Source: Elusimicrobia bacterium HGW-Elusimicrobia-1 (GTDB lineage Bacteria > Elusimicrobiota > Endomicrobiia > PHAN01). Taken from it: 64,000 nucleotides of DNA. The notes beneath the pieces were generated by a model, which was not told the origin of the DNA, ran no database searches, and saw only the letters and a list, made by a program, of their open reading frames with translations. The position numbers and the translations under genes were made by a program. The number at the start of each line of letters is the position of its first letter. Position 1 is the stretch's first letter. Where the stretch lies: positions 4,024 to 68,023 of the forward strand of contig PHAN01000016.1 in assembly GCA_002841695.1 (NCBI GenBank), written 5' to 3'. Of the stretch, positions 1,972 through 42,472 are shown piece after piece.

Positions 1972-2286
1972 ATGGATAAAAACGACATAGTCGACGTCGT
2001 GGCGGCCGTTCTTTCGTCCGCCCCCGCCCGCTCTTCCGGCGGCGAGCGGCCCGTTACGCCGTTTGGCGAGGCGGCCTCGCGGACGTATAAGTCCGGTGTT
2101 TACGCGTCAGGGTATCTGAAGCCGTTTACGGCGCTCAAAAGCGGTCGGCCTTTTCTGAGCGAGTACGACGTAAAGACAATGCTGAGTTCCAATCCGCGCG
2201 AAATAACGGTTCCCAAAAACGCCATTATCAGTCCGCTTGCCGAAGATCTTATACAGGAGAAAAACGTAAAAATCAATTATGTATGA
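1972..2286 (+). CDS. Hypothetical 104-aa protein with N-terminal encapsulation-peptide-like helix (DIVDVVAAVLSS) plus low-complexity linker; translationally coupled to pilT
   Basis: ORF with an amphipathic N-terminal helix followed by a Pro/Ser/Gly linker (APARSSGGERP). Its stop overlaps the pilT start (ATGTATGA at 2279-2286). No family recognised. Confidence 0.45.
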   Translation: MDKNDIVDVVAAVLSSAPARSSGGERPVTPFGEAASRTYKSGVYASGYLKPFTALKSGRPFLSEYDVKTMLSSNPREITVPKNAIISPLAEDLIQEKNVKINYV

Positions 2287-3355
2287 CGTAAAAAAACTTC
2301 TTGGCGCGATGATCCGCAACAACATATCGGACATCCATCTTAAATCTGATTCCGCGCCCTTAGTAAGAGTCAACGGAGAGCTTGTCACCGCGTCCGAGGA
2401 AAAGATAACGGCTGAAACGATGAAAACAATCGTTGAATCGGTGCTTTTGCCCGATCAGGCCGAGAAGTTTCGCAGGGATTGCGACATAGATTTTGCATAC
2501 TCCGTCGAAGGTCTTTCGCGGTTCCGCGTCAATATGAGCATGGAAAGGGGTAATCCGTCCATTGTTCTTCGAGTTATTCCGACGGAAGTAAAAACCTTTG
2601 AGGAACTCAACCTCCCCGACGAAGCATTCAGAAAACTCGCCAACGAATCCCGCGGGCTCATACTGATAGCGGGAATAACCGGCTCCGGAAAAACAACCAC
2701 TCTCAACGCCATTATCAATCACATCAACGAAAATACGCGCGCGAAGATCGTTACCATAGAAGATCCTATCGAGTATTATCATTTCGACAAAAAATCGTCG
2801 ATCTCGCAGCGCGAAATCGGCCGCGACGCCAAATCGTTTGAGAGCGCGCTGAAATATTCTCTCAGACAGGACCCCGATATCATAGTGCTGGGCGAACTCA
2901 GAGATTCCGAGTCGATGAAAGCCGCCATACTGGCCGCCGAGACCGGGCATCTGGTGCTTTCCACCATCCACACCATAGATACTTCTCAGACGATAGACCG
3001 CATCATCAGTTCTTACCCTCCGCATCTTCAGTCGGGCGTATGCGCCCAACTCGCCTATGTGGTCAAGGGGATAGTGGCACAGCGTCTGGTGCCTTCCAAA
3101 GATTGCTCCGCGCAATACCCCATTTGCGAGATACTTATAGGCACGTCGCTTATAAAAAATATCATCGCGGAGAAAAAGCTCGGCGATATAGCCAAGGCGC
3201 TTGAACAGGGCTCTTTTTACGGTATGCGCACGTTCGACCAGGATATATACAAGCTTTTTACCGAAGGTAAGATTTCGTCGGAAACCGCGTTTGAAAACGC
3301 CACTAACGTAGACGATCTGTCTTTGCGGCTAAAGGGTATAGAGCGAACCTCATAA
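2279..3355 (+). CDS. pilT: PilT-family type IV pilus retraction (twitching motility) ATPase
   Basis: Walker A GITGSGKTT, Asp box, Walker B DIIVLGELRD and His box TIHT are all present. Length 358 aa. N-terminus matches PilT-type (ISDIHLKSDSAPLVRVNGEL). Confidence 0.85.
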   Translation: MYDVKKLLGAMIRNNISDIHLKSDSAPLVRVNGELVTASEEKITAETMKTIVESVLLPDQAEKFRRDCDIDFAYSVEGLSRFRVNMSMERGNPSIVLRVIPTEVKTFEELNLPDEAFRKLANESRGLILIAGITGSGKTTTLNAIINHINENTRAKIVTIEDPIEYYHFDKKSSISQREIGRDAKSFESALKYSLRQDPDIIVLGELRDSESMKAAILAAETGHLVLSTIHTIDTSQTIDRIISSYPPHLQSGVCAQLAYVVKGIVAQRLVPSKDCSAQYPICEILIGTSLIKNIIAEKKLGDIAKALEQGSFYGMRTFDQDIYKLFTEGKISSETAFENATNVDDLSLRLKGIERTS

Positions 3356-3409
3356 AGGGACTTGCCTCCGCCCGCAGAGCCGACATCCGCAGTTGAAAGT
3401 CCGCGATCA

Positions 3410-5275
3410 ATGCTCAAAAAATGGGAATTTATCAGGCAGCCGGCGGAAAAAGATTCATCGCGCTGGCGTCTAAAACTCAAAATCGCCGAGGATGACGTCG
3501 ACAAAATCCTGGGCGAGCTGCCGGGCAATAAGGGAAGGCCGTTTCTGGTCGAGGACGGCGTCTTTGATTTCGGCGCGTATTTTTACAATCTCACGCAAAA
3601 CGACCACGCGGCCATAGCCGAAATACTCAAAAAGAAGTCGCCCGACGGCAAATGCGGCGGTTTTAACGAAGAAACCGAGGACGTTTTCGCTTCTCTGGCC
3701 GCCAAAATCGACGAATCCGCCCGCCTATCGCCGGTTTCTCAGGAATCCGCCAATCGTCCCGCGCCTCCTGCCGCGCCGCCATCCGGCCCACGCAACGGTC
3801 ATCACAACGGTAATAACGTCCCTGCTTCGCAGGCGGGCGCGGATGCTGCGGTCTCGCCGCAGGAAACTTATTCCGGCGCATTTCTCGTGGAGGATATGCC
3901 GCTTAATCCGGAGTATATTTTCGAGCAGTTTGTCGTGGGTTCCAATAATCGCTTTACCCACGCCGCCGCGCTCGCCGTGGCCAAGGCGCCCGGTAAAACT
4001 TACAATCCTTTCTTCATACACGGCGGCGTCGGCCTGGGTAAAACCCATTTGATGCAGTCCATCGGGCATTACGTCAAAAAAAACTTTCCGGATTTGAAGG
4101 TCCTCTATGTCACCACGGAGAAGTTCGTAGGCGACGTCATCGACGCCATAAGCCACGGCGAAAACAACGCTCTGAGGAACTTTTATAAAACCATCGACGT
4201 GCTTCTGGTCGACGATATACAGTCGCTGTCGCAATCCGAATCCATGCAGGACGAATTCTTTCATATTTTCAACCTGTTGCATCAGAATAAAAAACAGATA
4301 GTCATAACCTGCGACCGCCCGCCGAAACTTCTTAATATTCTGGAAGATCGGCTTCGCTCCCGTTTCGAGTGGGGGCTTATTGCCGATATGAAATCTCCCA
4401 CACTGGAAACAAGGGTCGCGATACTTAAGAAAAAAGAAGAAGCCGAGCATCTGGAACTCGACGATAATATACTGCTTTACATCGCTTCCAAGTTGAAATC
4501 CAATATAAGAGAACTCGAAGGTTTCCTGAAAAGAATAACCGCGTATTCCACGCTGACTAAGCAGGAAATCAATATTGCCCTGATAAAAACGCTTATGGCG
4601 GAACTTCTGCCCGGCGAGGAGAATCCGGATATTACCATGGCCGCCGAACAGGCAGCCAAGTCGCCTGTGCCGCAAATGCCGCCGCAGACAATTCCGAGTC
4701 AAAAAATACCCGAACACGATTCGCCCGAGCCGGAGCGTCCGTCTATGGATTCGCTTAGCGAGGCGGACATCAAAATAGTCCCCAAAGGCGTCCAATTTTC
4801 GCCCTCGCCGGCGCACACGATACCGCAGCCGGTTCATCAGCAGCCGTCCGTTCACGCCGCCGCGCACGCGTCATTGGATCCGACACTGCGTCCGGTTGAT
4901 GTGGTGTTCTTTTTTCCGTCGGGGAAAGAGAATGAACTGGCGAAAATAAAAGACAAGTTCGCCGAGGTCATCAAAAAACACAAACTCAAATTTCAACTCG
5001 TTTCCGTATTTGACAAACCATACGAAAATAAGGGCAAGATAAATTACGCCATGTTTACCGAACTCTGCAAGACAAACAAGGTCGGCATCTCCGTGGTGCT
5101 TGCGCCCCCGCCGGATGCGGGCATTCGGGAAGAGGATTTTGTCAATATTCTGGGAGCGATGATGAGCGATGAAAAAATATCTCTTCAACTGGTTCCGTGG
5201 AACGAGATAAACAAGGACTACCGCTATCTCAATCTGGCGTTGGATATAACACTTTCCGGCGCCGACGGCAAGTGA
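3410..5275 (+). CDS. DnaA-like AAA+ protein: DnaA domain III (including the RFEWGL signature) with non-DnaA N-terminal region and a ~230-aa C-terminal extension replacing DNA-binding domain IV
   Basis: NPFFIHGGVGLGKTHLMQSIG (Walker A), VLLVDDIQ (Walker B), RSRFEWGLIADMKSP (DnaA box VII) and ITCDRPP match DnaA domain III. No HTH domain IV sequence is present in any frame. The tail contains a Pro-rich linker and a distinct ~120-aa domain (VVFFFPSGKENELAKIKDKF...). An alternative TTG start exists at 3362. Confidence 0.7.
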   Translation: MLKKWEFIRQPAEKDSSRWRLKLKIAEDDVDKILGELPGNKGRPFLVEDGVFDFGAYFYNLTQNDHAAIAEILKKKSPDGKCGGFNEETEDVFASLAAKIDESARLSPVSQESANRPAPPAAPPSGPRNGHHNGNNVPASQAGADAAVSPQETYSGAFLVEDMPLNPEYIFEQFVVGSNNRFTHAAALAVAKAPGKTYNPFFIHGGVGLGKTHLMQSIGHYVKKNFPDLKVLYVTTEKFVGDVIDAISHGENNALRNFYKTIDVLLVDDIQSLSQSESMQDEFFHIFNLLHQNKKQIVITCDRPPKLLNILEDRLRSRFEWGLIADMKSPTLETRVAILKKKEEAEHLELDDNILLYIASKLKSNIRELEGFLKRITAYSTLTKQEINIALIKTLMAELLPGEENPDITMAAEQAAKSPVPQMPPQTIPSQKIPEHDSPEPERPSMDSLSEADIKIVPKGVQFSPSPAHTIPQPVHQQPSVHAAAHASLDPTLRPVDVVFFFPSGKENELAKIKDKFAEVIKKHKLKFQLVSVFDKPYENKGKINYAMFTELCKTNKVGISVVLAPPPDAGIREEDFVNILGAMMSDEKISLQLVPWNEINKDYRYLNLALDITLSGADGK

Positions 5276-5285
5276 CGCCTCGACG

Positions 5286-6941
5286 ATGAAAAAAACGGGA
5301 TTTTTGCACTCTCTGATTCTTTTTGCTTTCGCCGTGCTGTGGGTCGGCGGCGGTTTGTGGATTACGGTCTGCGCTACGCGTTCCTATGCGGCCGCGCGCG
5401 CCGTATCGGCGGCGAAGTCGGCAGTTTCTTCAGGGACGTCGCGCGGCATATATGAGCATTTCGCATCGGAGAAGACACTGGTCAAGATCGGACGCGTATC
5501 CGCCAAAACGGGCGCGATAGAGAAGCCCGTGACAAAGACCTCGCGTATGCCGGTGGAGTTTTTCTCCGCGGAGTTCGAGGCAGGGGGGGAATATTACAGA
5601 ATGTGGTATGCGGCGGCGTTTTATCTGGATTCGCTCAAGCATAAGATGACGCCGGTGGCAATCGGTTGGGTAGTGTGGCTGTTCGCGGGACTTTTTGCGG
5701 CGCACTGGCTCAACAGAAAACTTTTATTCGATCCATTGGATGCCCTCTCGTCGATCGAATCCTCGCCCGCCAGAATTCCCAAGGCCATCGAGGCCGCCGC
5801 AAGGGCGGTTTTCGACGCGCGATCCCATCTGGCGCTTCATTCGGTGCACTCTTCCGTGTTGCTGCAGGCCGCCAAATCCATATCTTCGCACGTGGACCTC
5901 AATCACGCCGTCTCGCGCATACTCGACATAGTTGTGGAGAAATTCCCCGACACTTCCTGCTCCGTGACGTTTCTCGACGATGACGGTTTCATAAGAATAA
6001 AAAACACCCGCGGGCTTTCCGCCGAGTTTATCAAAAAAATCAAGCTTCGCCGGGGAGAGGGTTTTGCGGGGGAATGCGTTGAAACCAAAAAAACCATAGT
6101 GGTACAGGATACCGATAAGACGTCGAATGCGGCCACCGATAAATTTGTCGCCGGTGAAAACATCAAATCGTTCGTCCACGTTCCCATAGTCGTCGAAAAT
6201 CGCGCCATCGGGACATTCAATATCAACTCGTACAAGAAGGACTATTTTACCCGCGACATTCTCAGCGTGGCCGCCACGCTCAGCGAATATCTGTCCGTGG
6301 CCGTTTCCAACGCCAAACTCTACGAACGTCTGCGAGATTTCAACCGGCGTCTGGAATCGGAAGTGTCCTACACCACCAGCGAATTGCTCAAGACCAACGC
6401 GAAACTGGTGCGTAAAATCAGAACGATGAAGAGCGCCATGGAAATCTTCGGCTATTTTGAATCCGAATCCCCGTCGACCGAAATATTGACGAAAGTATTT
6501 ACCAAAATCCGCGACGTTGTCGGCGCCGATTTTATAGCGTTTGTCACTTGCGACGCGGCTTGCGGACGGTTTAGGCCGCTTTTCAGGGTATCGGGTCTCG
6601 GCGATAACGAAACCGCTTTCGGCCGGACGGAATATGCGCCCGCCGAAGTCCCGCCCGCCGCCGAAGCTTTGGCGTCCGGCCGGCCCGTCATCAAAAATTC
6701 CCCGACGTCCGACGCTAAATGGAAGATAGTTCCGGAAGGCGTATTCATCAAAACGTCGGCGGTTTTTCCCGTTTTTGCCGGAGGAACCGCCGCGGGAGCC
6801 ATAATACTGGCAAATAAAATCGGCGAAGGTTTCGACGACGCCGACGCGGAATTCGCAGTTATGGCGGCTTCCCGTCTGGGCGTTTATATACACTGCGAGT
6901 ACCACTGTCACAAAAAAACGCCCGTTGCGGCGAAAAAATAA
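5286..6941 (+). CDS. Membrane-anchored tandem GAF-domain protein (no recognisable output domain)
   Basis: N-terminal TM helices (LILFAFAVLWVGGGLWITV, VVWLFAGLFAAHWL). The first GAF domain matches typical GAF sequence (...GEGFAGECVETKKTIVVQDTDK...IGTFNINS) and is followed by a second GAF-like region. Confidence 0.6.
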   Translation: MKKTGFLHSLILFAFAVLWVGGGLWITVCATRSYAAARAVSAAKSAVSSGTSRGIYEHFASEKTLVKIGRVSAKTGAIEKPVTKTSRMPVEFFSAEFEAGGEYYRMWYAAAFYLDSLKHKMTPVAIGWVVWLFAGLFAAHWLNRKLLFDPLDALSSIESSPARIPKAIEAAARAVFDARSHLALHSVHSSVLLQAAKSISSHVDLNHAVSRILDIVVEKFPDTSCSVTFLDDDGFIRIKNTRGLSAEFIKKIKLRRGEGFAGECVETKKTIVVQDTDKTSNAATDKFVAGENIKSFVHVPIVVENRAIGTFNINSYKKDYFTRDILSVAATLSEYLSVAVSNAKLYERLRDFNRRLESEVSYTTSELLKTNAKLVRKIRTMKSAMEIFGYFESESPSTEILTKVFTKIRDVVGADFIAFVTCDAACGRFRPLFRVSGLGDNETAFGRTEYAPAEVPPAAEALASGRPVIKNSPTSDAKWKIVPEGVFIKTSAVFPVFAGGTAAGAIILANKIGEGFDDADAEFAVMAASRLGVYIHCEYHCHKKTPVAAKK

Positions 6942-17603: not shown

Positions 17604-19826
17604 ATGACAGATAAATGGCAAGTAGCAGAAATAGACCGTGACAAAGTCAGGGAGTTTTCCCGGGCGCTGGGCATAAAGCCCATAGTCGCCCAACTTCTTC
17701 TTGTCCGCGGTGTCAAAAATCTCAAAGAGGCCGAGGCGTTTCTTAACCCGGATCTGGCCTCTCTGCCCAACCCGTTTCTGCTGCGCGACATGGAAGCGTG
17801 CGTGGAGCGGATACGCAAGGCCATCGCCGCCGGAGAGAAAATCCTCATTTTCGGCGACCGCGACGTCGACGGTATAACATCGGTTTCCATACTTAACAGG
17901 ACGATTAAAACTTTGGGTGCCAAGCACGTTTTCTGGTATATACCTTCGACGGAGGGTTACGGGCTCAACGTGCCTGCCGTCGAGCGATTCAAAAAAGAGC
18001 ACAATATAACTCTCCTTATCACGGTAGATTGCGGCATATCGAACAGAGAAGAGATAAAAATCATCCGCGAAATGGGCATAGACGTAATCGTGACGGATCA
18101 TCACGAACCTCCGGAAAAAATCCCTGAGTGCACGGCGGTGCTCAATCCGAAACTCGCAGGTTCGCAGTATCCGTTCAGGGATCTGGCCGGATGCGCCGTG
18201 GCCTTCAAAGTCGCGCACGCTTTGCTTTTTTCGTACAACCCTTATTATAACGAGGAACTTGTGGCCGTCGACATAGAGACCACGGGGCTTCATCCGCGCT
18301 ATTCGGAAATATGCGAGATAGGCGCGGCCCTTACAAAAAACGGCGGGATAACGGCCACTTTTCAGACGCTGGTAAAAACGAAAAAACCGATCCCCTCGGA
18401 TGTCTCGGCGATTCACGGGATTACCGACGATATGTGCGTTTCGGCGCCGCCTCTTAAAGAGGCGCTCGTGAAACTCGCCGACTTTATCGGATCGAGGCGT
18501 CTGCTCATACACAACGCTCCTTTCGACCTTTCCTTTTTAAGACACGCTTTCAAGGCGGAGTTGCGCAGCTCTCTTGACAACGACTGCATAGACACGCTGA
18601 GGATGTCGCGGCTGCATTTTCCGTTTAAGTCGCACGCGCTTACTTCGCTGGTGTCCGATATGAAAATAAGCGTCAGCGAGCACCACAGGGCGCTTGCCGA
18701 CGCAATGGCCTGCGCGCAGGTATTCTGGCGCCTGCAGGAAATGTCCGATGCGCGGGTAAAATATTTTCTTGAGGACCATCTCGACCTTGTTTCCGTCGGC
18801 ACTCTTGCCGACATAATGCCTCTTGTGGGCGAAAACAGAATTCTCGTAAAGCGCGGACTCGAACTGCTTACCAATTCCAAAAAAGCCGGAGTAAAAGAGA
18901 TTGTCGAAGGCGCGCTGCGCGAGCGGAACACGCTTTCGCTTACGTCAAAATACGTTACGTGGAACATAACGCCGCTCCTTAACGCCGCCGGAAGAATGGG
19001 CAAAGCCGACGTGGCCTGCCGGCTTTTGATGTCGACAAAGACCGACGAGGCGCGCGACCTCTACGGCGAAGTCGTAAAACTGAATCTTGACCGCAAGGAA
19101 TTGCAGACAGTAAACGTAGAAAAATTTTTCTCGAAACTCAAAACACAGTGCGATACCCAAAAAGACAGAATAATAGTCATATCCTCCGACGAAGCCGAGC
19201 ACGGCGTCACGGGAATAGTCGCCTCCAATATCGTCAGGTCGCTCAAAAAACCGGCCATTCTTTTTGTCGTCAAAGACGGTATAGCGCAGGGCGCCGGCCG
19301 CTCTTCCGGAGGTTTCAACCTGCTTGCGGCCGTCGAGCAACTCTCGGGGATGCTGATAAAATACGGCGGACATAAATCCGCCGTCGGGCTTTCTATGAAA
19401 GTCGAAGACGTCGACGAGTTCCGCAGAAGGATAAACGAGATCGCCGCCAAAGAGCCGCCGCCCGTCGAGGAACCGGTGATACTGGTTGATGTCTGCGTTG
19501 CTCCGGAAGACATAACCTCTGATTTCCTCAGGCAGATAGAGCAGCTCGAACCTTTTGGCCTTGAAAATCCGGCTCCGGTCTTCTGGGTCAAAGGCCTCAG
19601 AGTTCAGTCGGTCTCGCGGATGGGCGCCGGCGGTGAGCATTTAAGATTGCGTTTCGCCAAAAACTCAACGGGACTCTCGGCCGTCGGATGGGGACTCGGA
19701 AGTATGAGCGATGACATTTCGCGCTGGGACAGTGTGGACGTCGTCGGTCAAATCGAATCGAATTTCTGGCAGGACAAAGAGTATATGCAGCTGCAGATAA
19801 TGGATATAAGCCCCGCGCCGCTTTGA
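17604..19826 (+). CDS. recJ: RecJ-like single-stranded-DNA exonuclease (DHH/DHHA1) carrying an inserted DnaQ-like DEDDh 3'-5' exonuclease domain
   Basis: DHH motifs (ILIFGDRDVDGITS; LLITVDCGIS; VIVTDHHEP), the RecJ linker (LDLVSVGTLADIMPL) and DHHA1 (GGHKSAVG). Between them lie Exo I VAVDIETTGL, Exo II LLIHNAPFDLSFL and Exo III HHRALADAMA. Confidence 0.8.
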   Translation: MTDKWQVAEIDRDKVREFSRALGIKPIVAQLLLVRGVKNLKEAEAFLNPDLASLPNPFLLRDMEACVERIRKAIAAGEKILIFGDRDVDGITSVSILNRTIKTLGAKHVFWYIPSTEGYGLNVPAVERFKKEHNITLLITVDCGISNREEIKIIREMGIDVIVTDHHEPPEKIPECTAVLNPKLAGSQYPFRDLAGCAVAFKVAHALLFSYNPYYNEELVAVDIETTGLHPRYSEICEIGAALTKNGGITATFQTLVKTKKPIPSDVSAIHGITDDMCVSAPPLKEALVKLADFIGSRRLLIHNAPFDLSFLRHAFKAELRSSLDNDCIDTLRMSRLHFPFKSHALTSLVSDMKISVSEHHRALADAMACAQVFWRLQEMSDARVKYFLEDHLDLVSVGTLADIMPLVGENRILVKRGLELLTNSKKAGVKEIVEGALRERNTLSLTSKYVTWNITPLLNAAGRMGKADVACRLLMSTKTDEARDLYGEVVKLNLDRKELQTVNVEKFFSKLKTQCDTQKDRIIVISSDEAEHGVTGIVASNIVRSLKKPAILFVVKDGIAQGAGRSSGGFNLLAAVEQLSGMLIKYGGHKSAVGLSMKVEDVDEFRRRINEIAAKEPPPVEEPVILVDVCVAPEDITSDFLRQIEQLEPFGLENPAPVFWVKGLRVQSVSRMGAGGEHLRLRFAKNSTGLSAVGWGLGSMSDDISRWDSVDVVGQIESNFWQDKEYMQLQIMDISPAPL

Positions 19827-25983: not shown

Positions 25984-26003
25984 AACGGAGGTTTCAAAAG
26001 TTT

Positions 26004-26399
26004 ATGGATAAAAAATATCAGGAATTGCTCGAAGCCGCAAAAGCCGCCCGCAAAAACTCTTACAGCCCCTATTCAAAGTTTCCCGTGGGAGCGGCTCTCT
26101 TGACGGAAGACGGAAAAATCTTTACCGGCTGCAATGTCGAAAACGCCTCCTACGGTTTGACTAATTGCGCCGAGCGCACCGCGATATTCAAAGCCATTTC
26201 CGAGGGCTCCAAAAAATTCAAGGCCATAGCCATAGTGCTCGACGCTCCCGATTACGGAGCGCCCTGCGGCGCGTGCCGTCAGGTTATATACGAGTTCGGT
26301 CCCAATATCGACGTCATAATGGGCACGGTGTCGGGTAAGTCCGAGGTAAAAAAAATCTCGGAACTTATACCTCTGGCATTCGGACCGGAGAATCTTTGA
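26004..26399 (+). CDS. cdd: Cytidine deaminase
   Basis: CAERTAI and PCGACRQV zinc-binding motifs. Length 131 aa. Confidence 0.92.
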   Translation: MDKKYQELLEAAKAARKNSYSPYSKFPVGAALLTEDGKIFTGCNVENASYGLTNCAERTAIFKAISEGSKKFKAIAIVLDAPDYGAPCGACRQVIYEFGPNIDVIMGTVSGKSEVKKISELIPLAFGPENL

Positions 26400-29991: not shown

Positions 29992-31383
29992 ATGAGCGAA
30001 CAACATCAGCAGCAGCCCGCGCTTTTCAACGAAGACGAACTCTCAAAATTAAAAATCACCAAGGTGATCAAACGCGACGGCCGCATAGTGGCCTTTAACC
30101 GCGGGAAAATCGTCGATTCGATTTTCCGCTCGGCGGTCGACGTGGGCGGCTCTGACCGCGCTCTCGCGGAGTCCCTGGCCGACAAAGTCATAACGCTGAT
30201 GAAACAGATATATCCCATAGCCGCAATGCCGTCCGTCGAGGAAATACAGGATCTGATAGAAAAAGTTCTGGTCGGCAACGCGCATTACCGCACTGCCAAG
30301 GCGTACATTCTTTACCGCGACGAACACAGAAGGTTGCGCGAACATAAAGACGCCAAAATCGTTGTGGAGGACAATGTGCCTTATAAAGTTCTCTGGAGAG
30401 TTTATTCCTGGAATGTGGATCACGGCTGCGACACGACCGAGAATATAGAAAAAACAATCCGCGACGGCAGGTTCCCCGAATTGGTGGCGGCCGCCGAGAA
30501 GCAGTACCACGACAACATAGGCGACGTCGCCGACAGAATACTGGAAAGAGCCGACAAAATAAAACTGGTCATCGTCGCCGGTCCGTCGTCGAGCGGCAAG
30601 ACCACTACGACTCTTAAAATCGGGGAAAAACTCGCCGCAAAAAATCTTTCGTTTGTCTCCATCGGGCTGGATAATTATTTTAAGGACCTCCAAGAGCATC
30701 CCAAGGATGAATACGGCGATTATGATTTTGAGACGCCGGAAGCGCTCGACTTGAAACTCATAAACGAGCATCTCTTTGAATTGATGAAGGGAAAAACCAT
30801 AAAGATGCCCCTGTATGATTTCAAAACGGGCAAGCGCAAACTCAACGCTCAGGAATTCCGTCTGGAAAAAAACCAGATTCTTCTCATTGACTCGCTGCAC
30901 GGTCTTTATCCGGCCATGACGGCGTCGATTCCGCACAACAATAAGTTCAAATTCTACATCGAGGCGCTCTGTCAGATAAAGGATTCAAAGGGCGAGTTTA
31001 TGCGCTGGTGCGATTTAAGAATGCTTCGCCGCATGATCAGAGATTCCTGGCACCGCTCGTACGACCCCGTGCGCACCGTCGGGCACTGGCATTACGTAAG
31101 GCGTTCCGAAAAGCGTCACATTGTGCCTTTCATAAATAAATCGGATTATATTTTTAACGGGTCGCTTCCTTACGAACTTCCGCTTCACAAGAAATATCTT
31201 TTCAAATACTTTGATTCGATACTCGGCGCTTATAAGGACGATCCCAAAAAGATAGACGCCTACATCCGCGCCAAGCGCGTTTACGATATATTATCGGAAT
31301 TCAAAACGGATCCCGACGACACTTGCGTCCCCGACAATTCTCTGATGAGAGAGTTTATAGGCGGCAGTAAGTACAGCTACTGA
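29992..31383 (+). CDS. ATP-cone domain fused to uridine kinase/phosphoribulokinase-family nucleoside kinase
   Basis: N-terminal ATP-cone (KVIKRDGRIVAFNRGKIVDSIFRSAVDVG). PRK-family P-loop VIVAGPSSSGKTTT. Downstream LIDSLHGLY region typical of Udk. Confidence 0.7.
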   Translation: MSEQHQQQPALFNEDELSKLKITKVIKRDGRIVAFNRGKIVDSIFRSAVDVGGSDRALAESLADKVITLMKQIYPIAAMPSVEEIQDLIEKVLVGNAHYRTAKAYILYRDEHRRLREHKDAKIVVEDNVPYKVLWRVYSWNVDHGCDTTENIEKTIRDGRFPELVAAAEKQYHDNIGDVADRILERADKIKLVIVAGPSSSGKTTTTLKIGEKLAAKNLSFVSIGLDNYFKDLQEHPKDEYGDYDFETPEALDLKLINEHLFELMKGKTIKMPLYDFKTGKRKLNAQEFRLEKNQILLIDSLHGLYPAMTASIPHNNKFKFYIEALCQIKDSKGEFMRWCDLRMLRRMIRDSWHRSYDPVRTVGHWHYVRRSEKRHIVPFINKSDYIFNGSLPYELPLHKKYLFKYFDSILGAYKDDPKKIDAYIRAKRVYDILSEFKTDPDDTCVPDNSLMREFIGGSKYSY

Positions 31384-32474: not shown

Positions 32475-32698
32475 AATGCTACGTCGACCGTATCGAAGAC
32501 GGCAAGTACGCGGTGATAAATGTGACGGGCGGCGGCGAGATGATAATTCCCGTGAAGCAGTTCAAGTTCAAAATCCGCGAGGGGATGCATCTTGACGCGG
32601 ATTTCCGTTGCGACAAAAAATCCGAGCGCGCAACTCTCGACAGAGTAAAAAAACTTCAGGCCGAACTTTTGGCGCGTTCCGGTAAAAAAAACAAATGA
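32471..32698 (+). CDS. DUF3006-like small protein
   Basis: 75 aa. MKCYVDRIEDGKYAVI..GGG pattern typical of DUF3006. Start overlaps the dgt stop. Confidence 0.5.
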   Translation: MKCYVDRIEDGKYAVINVTGGGEMIIPVKQFKFKIREGMHLDADFRCDKKSERATLDRVKKLQAELLARSGKKNK

Positions 32699-34185
32699 TA
32701 AAAAGAGCTTCCGTTATTCTGGCGGCACTCGCCGTCGCGGCGCAAATAGCCGTTGCCTCCGACGACATCAAGATATGGTTCTCGAATCCGGACTCATCTT
32801 TGCCAAGCCCTCTTTCGCACGATACTTCCAAAAGAATAGACGCGGCGCTCTATGATTTCATAGATTCGGCTCAGAGCGGAACCACCGTCTACGTCGCCAT
32901 TTTTGAAATGAATCTCGACGGCTCCGGCGATGCCTCGGCGCTTAAAAACATAAAAGGCCTGCTTAACTCCAAAAGCGCCGACGGCGTCGCAATTTATGTC
33001 GTCGGGCACTCCACTGTAACTCTTGCCGGTCTCACTTTCCCGACTACGGTCTACCGCGCCGCTTACGAGGGCGAAGGCACCGAGGGTTCCGGCGGCCTCA
33101 TGCACAACAAGTTCGTCGTGCTGAAGGATTCCGCCGTCTGGACGGGGTCGTACAATTTTACTCTCAGCGCGACTTTGCAGCAGGACAACAACGCCGCGGA
33201 GATATTCTCGCCGGAACTGGCCGGGGTTTTCGAGACGGAATTCATCAATATGTACGGGCCGCTTGCCGTCGCTTCCAAAAAATTCGGCGACATTAAAACG
33301 TCTTCGGCGTCGGCGGCCGGCACAAACGTAAACGGCAGTTCCGTCACTATGCGCGACGGCACCGTCGTAAAAGTTTATTTCAACCCCTACACGACTCCGC
33401 AGACGGTAGCCGCGGCCATCGAAAGCGAAATCGCGCCGTCGCCTGTTTCGGGTATACCCGCGCCCGCGGAAAGCGTCGGTTTTGCCGCGGCGTGGTTTTC
33501 CAGAACGTCGATATCCGAAGCCATGAAAGAGGCGCTCGCGGCCGATGCCGGTCTTGATATATCAGGAATAATGGACGATCAGAGCAGCAATACGTCGAAT
33601 TTCTGGAGTTTGAAGACATCGACGATAAATGTCGTGTGGGACTCGCGCCGCTCGTCATTCGGGCGGGGGCTTATGCACCATAAATTTATTTTTATCGACC
33701 CGCGACGCTTAAACGGCCGTGTCGTTACCGGTTCGGCCAACTGGTCCAACTCAGGCGCGACTTCCGACGGCAACGACAACGACGAAAACATCGTCATAAT
33801 ATACAACTCTTCCGTAAGCGGTAAATATTACGACGAGTTCCGCAGAATGTTCGCGCTGACGGGTCAGGTTTCGGCGGGCGCCGTGGCAAAGGCCGTCGAC
33901 AACGTCATAATGTATCCGAGTCCCGCGCGGGCTTCCGCGGCTATAGGTTTCGATATCTCGGCGGTCGTCGAGAAAATCACCATCAAGATATACACGCTTT
34001 CGGGCGAATTGGCGCGGTCCATTACCCCTGAAACATATTATCCCGGGTTTTACAACGAGGTCGTCTGGAACCTGAAAAATTCCACGGGGCAGCGTGTCGC
34101 GCCCGGTCTTTATTTCATAAAAGTCGAAGCCGAAACTCCCGACGGAAAGTTTTTCGCGCTCAAAAAAGCCGCGGTGGGGAAGTGA
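32695..34185 (+). CDS. Secreted phospholipase-D-family (HKD) nuclease with C-terminal T9SS-type (Por_Secre_tail-like) sorting domain
   Basis: Signal peptide. Two HKD motifs (HNKFVVLKD...GSYNFT and HHKFIFID...GSANWS). C-terminal ~85 aa match the T9SS CTD consensus (YPSP...IKIYTLSGELARSI...VWNLKNSTGQRVAPGLYFIKVEA). Confidence 0.8.
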   Translation: MIKRASVILAALAVAAQIAVASDDIKIWFSNPDSSLPSPLSHDTSKRIDAALYDFIDSAQSGTTVYVAIFEMNLDGSGDASALKNIKGLLNSKSADGVAIYVVGHSTVTLAGLTFPTTVYRAAYEGEGTEGSGGLMHNKFVVLKDSAVWTGSYNFTLSATLQQDNNAAEIFSPELAGVFETEFINMYGPLAVASKKFGDIKTSSASAAGTNVNGSSVTMRDGTVVKVYFNPYTTPQTVAAAIESEIAPSPVSGIPAPAESVGFAAAWFSRTSISEAMKEALAADAGLDISGIMDDQSSNTSNFWSLKTSTINVVWDSRRSSFGRGLMHHKFIFIDPRRLNGRVVTGSANWSNSGATSDGNDNDENIVIIYNSSVSGKYYDEFRRMFALTGQVSAGAVAKAVDNVIMYPSPARASAAIGFDISAVVEKITIKIYTLSGELARSITPETYYPGFYNEVVWNLKNSTGQRVAPGLYFIKVEAETPDGKFFALKKAAVGK

Positions 34186-35224: not shown

Positions 35225-36115
35225 ATGAAAAGACAAATAAAACATTATCGATATTCGGCGCTCATGCGCTTCTTATCCATTTTCGCGGCGCTGTCGCTGC
35301 GATGCGGCGCGGCCTTTGCCGACACATCGATACTGAAGGTTCATTTTCTCGACGTCGGACAGGGGGATTGCTCTCTCATTCAGACGCCCGGAGGAAAAAC
35401 TCTGTTGGTGGACGGCGGGCCCGAAGACGACTACTTCGACGCCGGCCGCGAAATTATTGTTCCGTATCTTAAAAAACTCGGCATCAAAAAAATAGACGCG
35501 ATATTTGTTTCGCACGCTCATCGCGATCATATAGGCGGCATTCCCGAAATAATAAAAAACTTCGAGGTAGGCGCTGTTTACGATACCGGCTACGCATATC
35601 CTTCGCCGATTTATGAAAAGCTCCTCCGGCAGATAAACGCCAATAAGATAACTTACATACAGGCGCGCGCCGACACCAAAGCGGTAATAGACCCGGACGT
35701 GGAAATAAAGATTCTGGCCCCCCCGAAGAAGCTTCCGTGGGACGATCCGAACAATAATTCCATGGTGGTACGGCTTTCGTACAAAGAAATCTCGTTTCTG
35801 TTTACCGGCGACATCGAGGCGGACGCCGAGGATTCTCTCGTCAGAATTTATCGCTACGGCCTGGAATCCAACATACTGAAAGTCGCGCACCACGGCTCCA
35901 AAACATCATCCGCCGATTATTTTCTGGAAGCGGTTAATCCCGAGGCCGCGGTCATACAAGTCGGACGCCGCAACCGTTTCCGGCATCCCAGCCCGTCTAC
36001 CGTCAAAAAATTAAAAGATTTCGGGATGAACGTCTACCGGAACGACATCGACGGCACCGTCGTCGTCGATACCGACGGTCATGTCTTTGAAGTCAAAAAA
36101 CTCGGGTTTCAGTAA
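35225..36115 (+). CDS. Secreted ComEC-type metallo-beta-lactamase-fold protein (putative nuclease), paralog 1
   Basis: Signal peptide. FLDVGQGDCSLIQTP start typical of the ComEC MBL domain. HAHRDHIGG metal motif. Also VAHHGS. Confidence 0.75.
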   Translation: MKRQIKHYRYSALMRFLSIFAALSLRCGAAFADTSILKVHFLDVGQGDCSLIQTPGGKTLLVDGGPEDDYFDAGREIIVPYLKKLGIKKIDAIFVSHAHRDHIGGIPEIIKNFEVGAVYDTGYAYPSPIYEKLLRQINANKITYIQARADTKAVIDPDVEIKILAPPKKLPWDDPNNNSMVVRLSYKEISFLFTGDIEADAEDSLVRIYRYGLESNILKVAHHGSKTSSADYFLEAVNPEAAVIQVGRRNRFRHPSPSTVKKLKDFGMNVYRNDIDGTVVVDTDGHVFEVKKLGFQ

Positions 36116-36137
36116 TCCTGCGGCACAATAAATATCC

Positions 36138-37070
36138 ATGATTGTAAAAAAAACAGCACGATTGTCGGCTGCGCTTTTTTTTGCCGTTTTACTGACGGGC
36201 TGCGCAACCGCTCCGAAGCGCGCAACTCGCCTCTTTGTCGCGCCTGCCGATTACATATCGGGCGACACCGACATCAAAATACATATGATAGACGTCGGCC
36301 AGGGCGATTCCATCCTTATACAGACGCCCAACGGACGCAATATGCTCATAGACGCCGGAGGCGTGCCTTCGTTTATGGGCGGGAATACCGATACCGGCCG
36401 CGAATACGTCATTCCGTTTTTACAGCGGCATTTGCGCCGGGGATTTACTCTGGACGCGGTTATAATGTCGCACCCGCACGCGGACCATATAGGCGGTATG
36501 CCGACGGTGCTGGAGAATGTGAAAGTCCGCAAGGTATACGATTCCGGCTACGCCCGCGGCGACAGCGAATACGGAAAGTGTCTTGAAATTATCAAGCGCA
36601 AGAATATCGACTACGAGGTCGTCTCCGCCGGAGACGTCATAGAACTTGACCCCGACCTGGAAATAACCGTGCTTTCGCCGCCGTCGGGCATATCATTCGA
36701 GGGCGCTAACAACAATTCCGTGGTAGTGCGGATAAAATACAAGGATTTTGTGACGATATTGACGGGCGACGCCGAGGTCGAAGCCGAGAACTATATGGTC
36801 CCAAGTTTTCGCGGCGGACTTCAGGCCAGCTTGCTTAAGGTCGGTCATCACGGGTCGCGCACTTCTTCCACGCCGGGATTTATAAACGCGCTGATTCCGG
36901 AAGTAGCCCTGATACCATGCGGGAGAAACAACCGTTTCGGTCACCCTCATTCCGAAACCGTTTCGCGTCTGAGAGGGGCCGATACATATGTTTATCGCAG
37001 CGATTACGACGGCGATGTCACCGTTACTTCCAACGGATTCAGTTTCACCGTCCGGACTTCGCGCAGATAA
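36138..37070 (+). CDS. Lipoprotein ComEC-type metallo-beta-lactamase-fold protein (putative nuclease), paralog 2
   Basis: Lipobox LLTGC. Also IDVGQGDSILIQTP, HPHADHIGG and VGHHGS. Confidence 0.75.
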   Translation: MIVKKTARLSAALFFAVLLTGCATAPKRATRLFVAPADYISGDTDIKIHMIDVGQGDSILIQTPNGRNMLIDAGGVPSFMGGNTDTGREYVIPFLQRHLRRGFTLDAVIMSHPHADHIGGMPTVLENVKVRKVYDSGYARGDSEYGKCLEIIKRKNIDYEVVSAGDVIELDPDLEITVLSPPSGISFEGANNNSVVVRIKYKDFVTILTGDAEVEAENYMVPSFRGGLQASLLKVGHHGSRTSSTPGFINALIPEVALIPCGRNNRFGHPHSETVSRLRGADTYVYRSDYDGDVTVTSNGFSFTVRTSRR

Positions 37071-40747: not shown

Positions 40748-42472
40748 ATGTCTAAAAAAATACTTAAAAACATAGTAGAGTACGCCAAATCGCAGGGTTC
40801 GCGGATAACTTACGAAGACCTGAATTCGCGCATACCGCCCGAATATTTTTCAAAGGATTTCTACGACAGTTTGCTCGATGTCCTTAAGTCGTCCGGTATA
40901 ACCGTTGCCGACAAAAATGAGGAGCATCAAGGCGAGTCCCACGAAGCCGCCGTCGAGCATCATAAGGCCGAGCTGGCCAGCGCGATAGAAAAAGAGGCGC
41001 TGGAAAATCCCGTAAGAATTTACCTTCGTGAAACCGCCAAGACGCCTCTTCTGACATGGGAAGAAGAAATCGACCTTGCCCGCCGCATTCGCGATAACGA
41101 GAGAAAACTCGAGTTGATGATTCTCTCCTCGCCGATCATTTTCAAAGAAATCAAAAACTGGGCCACCCTTATCGACCAGGATGAAATGACCGAGAAAGAG
41201 CTTATGCAGCGCGGCCGCAAATCCGAGGGTCAGCTCGCCTATATGCGCCGCAAAATCCGCAAGGTCGTCAATTCCATCAACGCTTCGGAGCGTGTGCTCA
41301 ATCGTCTGATAGAAGAGGCGGCGTCAAAAAATTTAAGCGTCCGCGCCAGAGAGAGCATAACGGCCCAAAAAGAGGCCGCCAAGCTTAAACTTCTCAATCA
41401 GATAATTTCGCTTAATCTCAACCAGAATAAAATAAAACGCCTGACCAATAAAATAAAAACTCTTGCCGAAAAGGGAATGGAGTTGAGACGGCATTTGGAC
41501 GCGGTGGAGCGGCGCATAAAAATTAGTTTGTCTGATCTTAAAAATATATACGCCAAGTTGATGCGTCGCAAGATTTCGTCCCGCGATTTTGCGGCCAAGA
41601 CGCATATCAGCTCCGCCCTGGCCGAAAAAACTTTAACCAATAACGCCGAATATATCGCGAGTTTCAAGGATTTCGAGTCGGCTCTGCCGATGCCGGTTGC
41701 GGATCTTTTCTATATGAAGGAACGCATAGAAGTTCTCGAAAAACAGATCCACGACGATAAATCCAAACTTATCAGCGCGAACCTCCGCCTGGTGGTGTCT
41801 ATAGCCAAAAAATACATAAATCAAAGTCCTCTTGAACTCGCCGATCTTATACAAGAGGGAAACCACGGGCTTATGCGCGCCGTCGAAAAGTTTGAATGGA
41901 AAAGGGGATTTAAATTCTCGACATACGCCACATGGTGGATAAGACAGTCCATAAACAGGGCAATAGCCGATCACGGCCGCACAATACGCATACCCGTGCA
42001 TAAAAAAGAGATGATTTCCAAGATTTCTAAAATTCGGCGGAAGTACCAGCAGGAACATGCCCGCGACCCGCTTATAGCCGAATACGCCAAACACCTGCAT
42101 CTGGGCGCGGCGGAAACCCGCGAGATACTTTCGCTTATGCAGGAGCCCATATCCACCGCGACTCCCGTCGACGACGACGAATCGTCGCGTATAGAGGATC
42201 TCATCGAGGATCAGAACTCGCTTTCGCCTTCCAAGGCGCTTTATCAGATGCGTTTGCGCATAGCCATAGAAAAAATACTCTCCACCCTGCACGCCCGCGA
42301 AGCCGAAATCATCAGAATGAGATTCGGACTTGACGGGGGACATCAGCGCACACTTGAAGAAGTCGGTCAGGCGTTTAACATAACGAGAGAGCGTGTGCGC
42401 CAGATAGAAGCAAAGGTCCTGCGCAAACTCAAACATCCCTCCCGCAGCAAGCATCTCAGAGAGTATATTTAA
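40748..42472 (+). CDS. rpoD: RNA polymerase primary sigma factor
   Basis: Region 2 ([37 protein letters not shown]). Regions 3 and 4 ([27 protein letters not shown]). Confidence 0.92.

What the first reader, a model, noticed from the sequence alone, without database searches (positions are those of the whole stretch)
3362..5275. DnaA paralog retaining the diagnostic domain III (RFEWGL, DRPP) but lacking the DNA-binding domain IV
The AAA+ core is unmistakably DnaA-like, including box VII RSRFEWGL. The N-terminus does not resemble DnaA domain I. After the lid, the protein continues into a Pro-rich linker and a ~120-aa domain of unknown type instead of the helix-turn-helix domain IV.

It lies next to pilT, not dnaN, so it is probably not the replication initiator. 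Hda-like proteins are much shorter. This looks like a distinct, uncharacterised DnaA-derived ATPase.
Basis: partly seen in the sequence, partly recalled or inferred. Interest (0 to 1): 0.7.

Follow-up and report, generated by a model that had tools for sequence, protein, structure and literature searches.

The report
DnaA-derived ATPase with MID-like tail
A conserved protein of uncultured Elusimicrobiota keeps the ATP-driven core of the replication initiator DnaA but has two lineage-specific end domains in place of DnaA's DNA-recognition and helicase-recruiting ends (one folds like the Argonaute MID domain); it sits between a pilus-retraction ATPase gene and a GAF sensor gene, so it is most likely a repurposed DnaA that databases mislabel as the initiator.

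Summary
The ORF at 3362-5275 (true start ATG 3410, 621 aa) has a complete DnaA domain III plus lid, 57% identical to canonical DnaAs and gapless against B. subtilis DnaA. It has no domain I and no domain IV, and no frameshift could restore them.

It belongs to a compact family: the C-domain occurs in 88 of 1.84 billion representative proteins, named members being Elusimicrobiota MAGs. The layout is N-domain, disordered linker, AAA+, Pro-rich linker, C-domain.

New here:
- The N- and C-domains also occur as small AAA-less proteins, encoded just upstream or in the same syntenic slot.
- All 51 AAA+-containing members examined lack the basic ssDNA-binding B-motif residues but keep the Walker A lysine and arginine finger.
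- The frame DeoC, PilT, (small N+C protein), family gene, GAF sensor/kinase/response regulator recurs across lineages. dnaN is near 0/43 family loci versus 67/74 canonical dnaA loci.

Most likely it is not the initiator but an ATP-dependent self-assembling switch. Coexistence with a canonical DnaA is supported only indirectly. Its ligand and function are unknown.

The parts
3410..5275 (+). Gene for the 621-aa DnaA-derived ATPase. The mechanical ORF starts at TTG 3362; the real start is ATG 3410; the stop TGA is at 5273-5275.
3410..3664 (+). N-domain (aa 1-85), beta-beta-alpha-beta-beta-alpha(-beta), lineage-specific and not DnaA domain I.
   Evidence: pLDDT ~94; conserved W5, P11, R18, Y57, Y59; hhalign versus canonical domain I gives 0.4%; no PDB sequence hit
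3665..3889 (+). Disordered linker 1 (aa 86-160), containing a short conserved amphipathic helix (aa 92-105, nt 3683-3724).
   Evidence: pLDDT <50 except for the helix; variable length and composition
3902..4399 (+). DnaA domain IIIa, the AAA+ core (aa 165-330): Walker A 4022-4045, Walker B 4199-4216, sensor I 4304-4324, box VII with arginine finger 4343-4378.
   Evidence: PF00308 E=1.8e-67; gapless alignment to B. subtilis DnaA 8btg; residue mapping
4229..4246 (+). Altered B-motif (SQSESM). The positions equivalent to E. coli K243 and R245 are both Ser.
   Evidence: Family 40/40 S or A versus canonical K/R 69/72 at K243, and R 42, S 20, G 9, A 1 at R245; holds in 11 further divergent members
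4400..4609 (+). DnaA domain IIIb, the lid (aa 331-400), with sensor II SNIRELEG (4499-4522) and the family-specific Phe at the E. coli A339 position.
4610..4885 (+). Disordered Pro-rich linker 2 (aa 401-492).
   Evidence: pLDDT 30-45; 17 Pro in 91 aa; in other members it hosts polyQ tracts or a Zn-ribbon
4886..5263 (+). C-domain (aa 493-618), a (beta-alpha)4 Rossmann-like fold closest to Argonaute/PIWI MID domains. The hallmark C-terminal motif KDYRYLNLALDITL lies at 5213-5254.
2279..3355 (+). Upstream partner gene, a PilT/PilU-family ATPase. The gap to the family gene is 54 nt with no terminator-like site.
   Evidence: TIGR01420 415 bits; upstream in 7/7 first-set lineages with enough sequence and in 13 further loci
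5286..6941 (+). Downstream partner gene, a membrane protein with two GAF domains. The gap is 10 nt. In other lineages the ortholog is a GAF-histidine kinase.

Best explanation
This is not the chromosomal initiator. It is a lineage-specific chimeric ATPase, seen mainly in uncultured Elusimicrobiota.

SHOWN:
- A complete DnaA domain III (AAA+ core plus lid) lies between two domains, N and C, that also exist together as small stand-alone proteins. Those small proteins are encoded immediately upstream of the family gene or in the very same genomic slot.
- The ATP-binding and oligomerisation residues examined across the family are kept: Walker A/B, sensor I/II, box VII R281, the arginine finger R285, AID-2 L290 and the hydrophobic H-motif residue.
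- Three nucleic-acid or helicase-handling features of DnaA are gone: domain I, the domain IV helix-turn-helix, and the basic B-motif residues (K243/R245).
- The C-domain is a Rossmann-like fold most similar to the Argonaute MID domain. It is slightly acidic and carries a set of invariant residues (F14, P16, Y51, N58, Y59, P79, K115, Y117, Y119 in domain numbering).
- The gene is flanked by PilT (54-nt gap) and a GAF sensor (10-nt gap) with no terminator-like sites. This frame is conserved down to about 40% identity.

INFERRED:
- The protein works as an ATP-dependent, DnaA-style head-to-tail self-assembling switch. Through long flexible linkers it displays many copies of the N and MID-like C domains.
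- By their positions in the secondary structure, the invariant C-domain residues lie at the strand C-terminal edge, where Rossmann-like domains usually bind ligands.
- Those domains bind a small nucleotide-type ligand, a 5'-phosphorylated nucleic-acid end, and/or the neighbouring PilT and GAF / two-component proteins.
- The output concerns the pilus and nucleic-acid/nucleoside scavenging functions encoded around it, not origin firing.
- A canonical DnaA encoded elsewhere starts replication.
For: - Architecture and conservation.
- AAA+ residues retained and B-motif lost in 40/40 plus 11/11 members, versus K/R in 69/72 canonical DnaAs.
- The family AAA+ module is monophyletic in an NJ tree (51 tips, 38/50 resamples).
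- No domain I or IV by Pfam, custom HMMs or hhalign.
- Stand-alone N+C paralogs: P0207, P0183, P0208; ORFs between pilT and the family gene in L008, L011 and L014 hit both the N and C profiles; L092 has an N+C gene 2 nt upstream of a full member.
- In L090 the orthologous slot (BMC 78%, DeoC 60%, orf104 36% identity) holds an AAA-less N+C protein flanked by a response regulator and a GAF-histidine kinase.
- Synteny with PilT and GAF.
- dnaN near 0/43 family loci versus 67/74 canonical dnaA loci; no canonical domain I or IV within 10 kb in 31 metagenome loci.
- No DnaA-box cluster and no strand switch in the window.
- E. minutum dciA is Emin_0004, inside the replication operon.
- Terminal domains are acidic (median net charge -1 and -2, versus +4 for domain IV).
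Against: - No canonical dnaA could be retrieved from any genome that carries the family, so 'paralog' rests on indirect evidence.
- The AAA+ module is as conserved as a real initiator's (57% identity to other phyla's DnaA; 71% within the family). This could mean it still does a DnaA-type job or co-assembles with DnaA.
- The MID resemblance is fold-level only: hhalign 0.4%, no Pfam hit, and Foldseek ranks lumazine synthases first by E-value.
- A by-eye alignment suggests the Argonaute 5'-phosphate lysines are not conserved.
- PilT is missing upstream in one subgroup (L106, L113, L121), and the GAF gene is missing in the Endomicrobiia-type loci (L005, L013), so neither partner is obligatory.
- Conserved gene order in a phylum can be inherited without functional coupling.
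- There is no experimental datum of any kind.
Confidence: 0.55

Rival explanations
1. Regulator of initiation by co-assembly. Because both AAA+ interfaces are canonical, the protein inserts into or caps filaments of the genuine DnaA. It lacks the B-motif and domain IV, so it would poison or tune origin opening. Its N and C domains would sense nucleotide or nutrient status, coupling replication to the nucleoside/phosphate scavenging genes around it.
For: - Very high similarity to canonical domain III with no family-specific indels; arginine finger, R281 and L290 kept.
- Loss of the ssDNA-contacting K243/R245 equivalents.
- A family-specific Phe at the A339 position next to sensor II.
- Location in a nucleoside, phosphate and DNA-catabolism island.
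Against: - AAA-less N+C proteins occupy the same slot and neighbour the same signalling genes, so the module's core function does not need a DnaA-like surface.
- The gene is never linked to dnaA or dnaN.
- AID-1 R227 is variable in the family (27/40 R; K in this protein), whereas it is invariant in canonical DnaA.
- No Hda-like clamp-binding motif is present.
Confidence: 0.2
2. Handler of imported single-stranded DNA. Working with PilT-driven pilus retraction and ComEC-type proteins, the AAA+ module coats or organises incoming ssDNA, and the MID-like domain caps its 5'-phosphate end. The DNA is then fed to RecJ and the nucleoside/deoxyribose catabolic pathway.
For: - PilT adjacency.
- The island contains a secreted PLD nuclease, ComEC-type MBL proteins, a RecJ-DnaQ fusion, nucleoside phosphorylases, DeoB, and DeoC in a microcompartment locus.
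- The MID fold is a 5'-end-binding module in Argonautes (function from established knowledge of Argonaute structures).
- The DnaA domain III H-motif hydrophobic residue is retained.
Against: - The basic B-motif residues that contact ssDNA in DnaA are lost in all members.
- The C-domain and N-domain are acidic.
- There is no sequence trace of the Y-K-Q-K pocket (and by-eye alignment).
- AAA-less paralogs exist.
- PilT is absent in some lineages.
Confidence: 0.12
3. It is the only DnaA homolog of these bacteria and is the replication initiator. It would recognise the origin through the N and MID-like domains (or through a partner) instead of a helix-turn-helix domain IV.
For: - Domain III is as conserved as in true initiators, and the protein passes the TIGR00362 DnaA cutoff by about 1 bit (345 versus 343.9).
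- No canonical dnaA was seen in the window or in about 0.6 Mb of family-locus flanks.
- I could not retrieve any canonical Elusimicrobiota DnaA with the tools available.
Against: - dnaN is near 0/43 family loci versus 67/74 canonical dnaA loci.
- The orthologous slot can hold a protein with no AAA+ module (L090).
- Some members lack the N-domain, and linkers vary wildly.
- The B-motif is lost, the terminal domains are acidic, and there is no DnaA-box cluster or strand switch.
- The family is rare (88 representatives), and no hit among the 136 listed comes from a contig >0.62 Mb. So no hit comes from the closed E. minutum or Endomicrobium genomes.
- E. minutum dciA = Emin_0004 fits a normal replication operon.
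Confidence: 0.05
4. Artefact: a truncated or frameshifted dnaA, an assembly chimera, or a decaying pseudogene.
For: None beyond the missing domain IV.
Against: - An identical protein occurs on 9 contigs from independent assemblies and sources.
- More than 130 homolog clusters share the same three-domain architecture at 40-70% identity.
- The other reading frames are closed.
- The C-domain is highly conserved (64% mean column identity, 18 invariant positions) and folds with pLDDT 91.
Confidence: 0.01

Closest known systems
Canonical bacterial DnaA (e.g. B. subtilis DnaA, PDB 8btg; TIGR00362; Pfam PF11638 + PF00308 + PF08299)
   Same: Domain III including the lid: gapless alignment over 248 residues to 8btg (E=3e-87) and median 57% identity to 72 canonical DnaAs. 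Walker A/B, sensor I/II, box VII, the arginine finger and the H-motif hydrophobic residue are all kept.
   Different: No domain I and no domain IV. The basic B-motif residues are replaced, and there is a family-specific Phe next to sensor II. The gene is never next to dnaN, and extra N and C domains are attached through long disordered linkers.
Hda / HdaA (DnaA-related regulatory inactivator)
   Same: A DnaA-clade AAA+ protein lacking domains I and IV. A weak Hda_lid match is present.
   Different: Hda is about 230-250 aa, AAA+ only, with an N-terminal clamp-binding motif. This protein is 621 aa, has no such motif, scores 112 bits against a 194.8 cutoff for TIGR03420, and is much closer to DnaA itself than to Hda.
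Argonaute / PIWI MID domain (e.g. MIWI 4p1z, hAgo2 3luc/7c6b)
   Different: No sequence or profile similarity. No PIWI, PAZ or N domains accompany it. The Y-K-Q-K 5'-phosphate pocket is not evidently conserved. Lumazine synthase, REC and LacI-type folds are only about 4 Z units behind, so common ancestry is unproven.
DnaC / DnaI / IstB helicase-loader AAA+ proteins
   Same: The same initiator/loader clade of AAA+ proteins. There is a weak PF01695 match (27.8 bits).
   Different: Scores are far below the family cutoffs (NF038214 45 versus 200; DnaI 33 versus 228). There is no helicase-binding N-domain and no transposase neighbour.

Membership tests
DnaA, chromosomal replication initiator | AAA+ domain III (PF00308) with Walker A/B, sensor I/II, box VII and arginine finger | tested here: met
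   PF00308 E=1.8e-67; residue-by-residue mapping; gapless alignment to 8btg
DnaA, chromosomal replication initiator | C-terminal helix-turn-helix domain IV (PF08299) that binds DnaA boxes | tested here: not met
   No Pfam hit. A custom domain IV HMM from 72 DnaAs gives no hit at E<=10. hhalign gives 0.2%. The other frames are closed. None of about 136 listed family members carries PF08299.
DnaA, chromosomal replication initiator | N-terminal domain I (PF11638; self-interaction and helicase recruitment) | tested here: not met
   No Pfam hit; custom domain I HMM gives no hit; hhalign gives 0.4%
DnaA, chromosomal replication initiator | ssDNA-binding H and B motifs of domain III (E. coli V211; K243/R245) | tested here: not met
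   The H-motif is kept (Ile). B-motif K243 is S or A in 40/40 members and R245 is S or A in 40/40, versus K/R in 69/72 canonical DnaAs at K243. The same holds in 11 divergent members. E. coli residue numbers come from my own recollection of the sequence, anchored on Walker A K178.
DnaA, chromosomal replication initiator | Genomic placement in the replication operon or near oriC (dnaA-dnaN; DnaA-box cluster) | tested here: not met
   dnaN lies within 10 kb of 0/43 family loci versus 67/74 canonical loci. There is no DnaA-box cluster. All genes from 52 to 58199 are on one strand.
DnaA, chromosomal replication initiator | NCBIfam TIGR00362 equivalog score above the curated cutoff | tested here: met
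   345.0 versus 343.9 bits, but only profile positions 99-347 of 437 are matched. This explains the 'DnaA' names in NCBI and JGI and is a naming artefact rather than evidence of function.
DnaA, chromosomal replication initiator | Being the sole DnaA homolog in the genome, i.e. essential for initiation | not testable with these tools
   Whole genomes or bins could not be searched. Only indirect evidence is available.
Hda / HdaA | Short AAA+-only protein with an N-terminal beta-clamp-binding motif; TIGR03420 above cutoff | tested here: not met
   621 aa with two extra domains. TIGR03420 scores 112 versus 194.8. The only QL[SD]LF-like matches lie inside the Walker B strand.
Argonaute MID domain | Rossmann-like MID fold | tested here: met
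Argonaute MID domain | Detectable sequence or profile homology to MID | tested here: not met
   No relevant Pfam hit even at E<=10. hhalign versus hAgo2 MID gives 0.4% and is out of register. A PDB profile search returns only noise.
Argonaute MID domain | 5'-phosphate/nucleotide pocket (Y529, K533, Q545, K566, K570 in hAgo2) | not testable with these tools
   Model coordinates cannot be superposed here. A by-eye secondary-structure alignment puts an invariant Asp at K566 and a variable residue at K570. This is a lead only.
Argonaute MID domain | Association with a PIWI domain | tested here: not met
   The domain is always C-terminal and preceded by a linker, a DnaA AAA+ module or the N-domain. 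No PIWI domain appears in any carrier scanned.
DnaC / IstB helicase loaders | Family-level HMM score above cutoff | tested here: not met
   NF038214 scores 45 versus 200; DnaI NF006505 scores 33 versus 228

The most novel reading that the evidence does not exclude
These Elusimicrobiota lineages have no canonical DnaA. This protein would then be their replication initiator, finding the origin without a helix-turn-helix domain IV and without the classical ssDNA-binding B-motif, for example through the MID-like domain, the N-domain, or the small N+C partner protein.
Probability: 0.05. Interest if true: 0.95.

Novelty: new variant of a known kind. Interest (0 to 1): 0.62.

Why it matters
**A new use of the DnaA core.** DnaA domain III is normally seen in the initiator itself or in the short regulator Hda. 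Here an almost unaltered DnaA ATPase core has been transplanted between two unrelated domains. It has lost every classical DNA-handling element examined, and it is fixed in an operon-like frame with a pilus-retraction ATPase and GAF / two-component sensors. If the reading is right, the initiator's ATP-dependent self-assembly switch can be reused outside replication, which would be a new functional class for this AAA+ clade.

**A new context for a MID-like fold.** The C-domain is a MID-like Rossmann domain outside any Argonaute context. It occurs in only 88 of 1.84 billion representative proteins.

**A practical annotation problem.** The family passes NCBI's DnaA equivalog cutoff by about one bit and is named 'chromosomal replication initiator protein DnaA' in NCBI and JGI records. 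That misnaming can mislead origin prediction. From my own knowledge, TIGR00362 is also one of the single-copy markers used for genome-quality and phylogenomic pipelines, so it could distort marker counts in this phylum.

Tried and rejected
**Frameshift or sequencing error hiding a domain IV.** Rejected: the other frames are closed, and the architecture is conserved in more than 130 clusters.

**Second dnaA or dnaN in the window.** None found.

**Finding a canonical Elusimicrobiota DnaA.**
It returned only 6 family loci plus canonical DnaAs of other phyla.
- The three indexed protein searches list only the best 120 hits, all of them family members.
- The papers on E. minutum and Rs-D17 are not held.
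- The only useful literature was the dnaA pseudogene reported in Ca. Endomicrobium trichonymphae and dciA = Emin_0004.

**Other searches that led nowhere.**
- The indexed search with the N-domain profile returned only two fragments.
- Sequence and profile searches of the N- and C-domains against PDB and Pfam gave noise only.
- A weak N-domain match to the LAGLIDADG endonuclease I-DmoI (E=0.4) was not pursued.
- hhalign of the C-domain to hAgo2 MID showed no signal.
- The AFDB50 fold library was unavailable.

**Alternative identities rejected.**
- Defence system: no PADLOC match.
- Phage origin: no viral contig carries the C-domain.
- Origin proximity: no DnaA-box cluster.
- Hda-type clamp motif: none.

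**Technical notes.** A first tree run timed out and was redone with a faster distance calculation. My greedy ORF picker miscalled 58-61 kb, which is ordinary coding sequence.
Full report
A 637-aa reading frame runs from TTG 3362 to the stop at 5275. All homologs begin at the equivalent of ATG 3410, and four independent assemblies call a 621-aa product there. Below I use 621-aa numbering; add 16 for the ORF as reported. Pfam finds Bac_DnaA (E=1.8e-67) and a weak Hda_lid, but no DnaA_N and no Bac_DnaA_C. NCBIfam's DnaA equivalog TIGR00362 is passed by about one bit (345.0 versus 343.9), using only profile positions 99-347 of 437. This explains why NCBI and JGI name these proteins 'chromosomal replication initiator protein DnaA'. 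The two other forward frames over 4500-5400 are full of stops, and the next gene starts 10 nt after the stop, so no frameshift can restore a domain IV. HMMs that I built from 72 canonical DnaAs find neither domain I nor domain IV in the protein. phmmer with E. coli and B. subtilis domain IV sequences finds no domain IV anywhere in the six-frame window.

**2. It is a conserved family, not an accident.** About 136 clusters (90% identity) share 40-70% identity over the full length. Where sources name an organism, it is mostly Elusimicrobia, Elusimicrobiota or Endomicrobia MAGs; a few records are labelled only 'bacterium' or 'subsurface metagenome'. The alignment and the AlphaFold model agree on five parts:
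- an N-domain (aa 1-85, pLDDT ~94);
- a disordered linker with one short conserved helix;
- DnaA domain IIIa plus lid (aa 165-400);
- a disordered Pro-rich linker;
- a C-domain (aa 493-618, pLDDT ~92) ending in the near-invariant motif KDYRYLNLALDITL.

The linkers are extraordinarily plastic. Variants include polyQ expansions, a ~250-aa coiled coil, a duplicated N-domain, and a Zn-ribbon. Some members lack the N-domain altogether.

**3. The AAA+ module is essentially canonical, with one telling exception.** It aligns without gaps to B. subtilis DnaA 8btg over 248 residues, and the alignment stops at the III/IV boundary. Median identity to 72 canonical DnaAs of other phyla is 57%. Those canonical DnaAs are 66% identical among themselves, and family members are 71% identical among themselves. 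The Walker A Lys, Walker B Asp-Asp, sensor I, box VII R281, the arginine finger R285, AID-2 L290, sensor II R334 and the H-motif hydrophobic residue are all kept. The two basic B-motif positions (E. coli K243 and R245) are Ser or Ala in 40/40 members. In canonical proteins K243 is K/R in 69/72, and R245 is R in 42, S in 20, G in 9 and A in 1. Eleven more divergent members also lack a basic residue at both positions. In E. coli and A. aeolicus these residues contact single-stranded origin DNA; this is established knowledge and the numbering is from my own recollection. A family-specific Phe replaces the small residue after ELEG (40/40 versus 0/72). In a neighbour-joining tree the 51 family AAA+ modules form one clade (38/50 resamples), which is consistent with a single origin. 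A caveat is that no canonical Elusimicrobiota DnaA was available for this tree.

**4. The terminal domains.**
- Neither domain matches any Pfam model or PDB sequence, even with profiles.
- Neither resembles canonical domain I or IV (hhalign 0.4% and 0.2%).
- The C-domain modelled alone is of high quality (pLDDT 91.4, pTM 0.86).
- Foldseek gives the best TM-score to the same MIWI MID (0.68/0.72) but ranks type-2 lumazine synthases first by E-value (4e-5 versus 2e-4).
- There is no sequence signal to hAgo2 MID.
- I therefore call the fold 'MID-like Rossmann', with homology unproven.
- By their positions in the secondary structure, the invariant residues F14, P16, Y51, N58, Y59, P79, K115, Y117 and Y119 (domain numbering) lie at the C-terminal ends of the strands and the start of the last helix. 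This is where Rossmann-like domains, including MID, bind ligands (inference).
- Both terminal domains are slightly acidic (median net charge -1 and -2, versus +4 for domain IV). This argues against a classical DNA-binding surface.
- The N-domain is beta-beta-alpha-beta-beta-alpha(-beta). I could not fold-search it alone.

**5. The C-domain is very rare, and the N and C domains are a pair.** An exhaustive HMMER search of 1.84 billion representative proteins finds only 88 carriers, always with the domain at the extreme C-terminus. In the subset I scanned or read, most have the DnaA AAA+ module. P0207, P0183 and P0208, however, are N-domain plus linker plus C-domain with no ATPase. The unannotated ORFs that lie between pilT and the family gene in other lineages turn out to be the same kind of small N+C protein:

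| Locus | N-domain E-value | C-domain E-value |
|---|---|---|
| L014 | 1.6e-15 | 7.4e-13 |
| L008 | 3e-12 | 2.5e-6 |
| L011 | 5e-12 | 3e-5 |

L005 and L013 keep only a weak C-domain with the same terminal motif. In L092 a 240-aa N+C gene ends 2 nt before a 614-aa full member. The protein in the window is thus best described as a small N+C protein into which a DnaA domain III has been inserted. The window itself has no second N or C copy.

**6. Genomic context.** In the window the order is: Flavoprotein-DeoC fusion, BMC shell protein, a 104-aa Eut-like ORF, PilT/PilU ATPase (TIGR01420, 415 bits), the family gene (54-nt gap), then a membrane protein with two GAF domains (10-nt gap). No terminator-like sites lie in the gaps. 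Findings across independent lineages:
- PilT lies upstream in 7/7 first-set loci with enough sequence, and in 13 of 31 further metagenome loci.
- An orthologous GAF protein, often a GAF-histidine kinase followed by a response regulator, lies downstream in 8 first-set and 6 further loci.
- Loci without PilT keep TIM, RpiB, (DeoC), the family gene, response regulators or a sensor kinase, then transketolase.
- In L090 the very same slot (BMC 78%, DeoC 60%, orf104 36% identity) holds the AAA-less N+C protein. It is preceded by a response regulator and followed by a GAF-histidine kinase.
- GGDEF or PilZ genes are nearby in three lineages.
- Downstream of the window's module lies a long same-strand run of nucleoside and DNA-scavenging genes.
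- No PADLOC defence model matches, and no viral contig carries the domain.

The indirect evidence all points one way:
- With a DnaN profile built from the canonical loci, dnaN is found within 10 kb of 67/74 canonical dnaA genes but of 0/43 family genes (604 kb).
- No canonical domain I or IV occurs in 422 kb around 31 family genes.
- The window shows no DnaA-box cluster and no strand switch.
- A relative carries an ortholog without any ATPase in the same slot, so that organism must initiate with something else.
- The B-motif is lost.
- In E. minutum the helicase operator dciA is gene Emin_0004, and the paper places it inside the dnaA-dnaN-recF-gyrB-gyrA operon. This fits a normal dnaA at gene 1.
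- No family hit comes from a contig longer than 0.62 Mb, that is, from the closed Elusimicrobium or Endomicrobium genomes. This is a weak inference.

I put the sole-initiator reading at about 5%.

**8. Most likely mechanism.**
- Shown: an intact ATP site, an intact arginine finger and intact oligomerisation residues. Domain I, domain IV and the basic B-motif are lost. The two terminal domains exist on their own and are encoded beside or instead of this gene. The placement between PilT and GAF or two-component sensors is conserved.
- Inferred: ATP-dependent DnaA-type head-to-tail assembly now serves to cluster the N and MID-like C domains on long flexible tethers. Those domains bind a nucleotide-type ligand, a 5'-phosphorylated nucleic-acid end and/or the neighbouring proteins. 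The output concerns the pilus and nucleic-acid scavenging functions nearby.
- Main rivals: a regulator that co-assembles with genuine DnaA (about 20%) and an ssDNA-handling factor for imported DNA (about 12%).

**9. Comparison and novelty.** In its core the protein works like DnaA domain III, but it fails the membership tests for DnaA-the-initiator (domains I and IV, B-motif, synteny). It also fails those for Hda (size, clamp motif, score) and for DnaC/IstB (scores). It shares a fold with the Argonaute MID domain, but not its sequence or its partner domains. I found no description of it in the held literature. I rate it a new variant of a known kind: a DnaA-clade AAA+ ATPase in a new architecture and a new genomic system, currently mis-annotated as DnaA.

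**10. Limits.** All functional statements are computational. The MID relation is structural only. The fold of the N-domain, the ligand, and the presence of a canonical DnaA in the same genome remain to be established.

Noticed in passing
window 17604-19826 (+): The RecJ gene carries an inserted DnaQ-type DEDD 3'-5' exonuclease domain (aa ~214-385): TIGR00644 543 bits plus TIGR00573 114 bits in one 740-aa protein. The same fusion (DHH + RNase_T + DHHA1 + RecJ_OB) appears in relative L008. It would be a single protein with both 5'-3' and 3'-5' ssDNA exonuclease modules.
   Followed up: partly
window ~50-37100 (+): A long same-strand run looks like one nucleic-acid scavenging island. It opens with microcompartment genes (Flavoprotein-DeoC fusion, BMC shell). 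It continues with transketolase, adenine deaminase, DeoB, PitA/PhoU, purine and pyrimidine nucleoside phosphorylases, RecJ-DnaQ, a DHH protein, MTAP, adenosine and cytidine deaminases, and a Na/Pi transporter. It ends with an ATP-cone + uridine-kinase fusion (29992-31383), a dGTPase-like HD protein, a PLD-type nuclease with a T9SS sorting domain (32695-34185), and two ComEC-type MBL-only proteins (35225-37070). Much of this order recurs in L007, L008 and L115.
   Followed up: partly
window 3683-3724 (aa 92-105 of the 621-aa protein); alignment A1 columns ~115-135: Inside the otherwise disordered linker 1 lies a short conserved amphipathic helix ([DE]-L-x-x-[ILMV]-L-x-x-[LV]-[AV]). It is a possible docking motif for a partner protein.
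   Followed up: no
related proteins P0107, P0175, P0211; L092 3858-5702; L106 8549-10411: A subset of family members carries a Zn-ribbon (CPxCG...[RY][WY]YCxxC) in linker 2. Other linker variants are a polyQ repeat expansion (P0077), a ~250-aa coiled coil (P0062) and two tandem N-domains (P0012).
   Followed up: partly
L001 1-667 (upstream of the window's region in ENA contig k141_45068): A 6490-residue giant protein with fn3/Big_5 repeats is encoded about 9 kb upstream of the family gene.
   Followed up: no
window, 14 dispersed sites (e.g. 5356-5364, 26003-26011, 41934-41942): TTATCCACA with up to 1 mismatch occurs 14 times versus 6.9 expected (1 of 100 shuffles reaches 14). The sites are scattered, mostly inside genes, and do not form an origin-like cluster.
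   Followed up: partly
window 1972-2286 (+): A 104-aa ORF overlapping the pilT start is conserved next to the BMC shell gene (36% identity in L090). It weakly matches the C-terminus of the TIGR02536 ethanolamine-utilisation protein, so it is probably a microcompartment accessory protein.
   Followed up: partly
L014 (GTDB record CAZFDO010000030.1): A MAG labelled 'uncultured Clostridia bacterium' carries the full Elusimicrobiota-type module (DeoC, PilT, small N+C protein, family gene, GAF). This points to either mis-binning or mis-classification, or to a rare occurrence outside the phylum.
   Followed up: no
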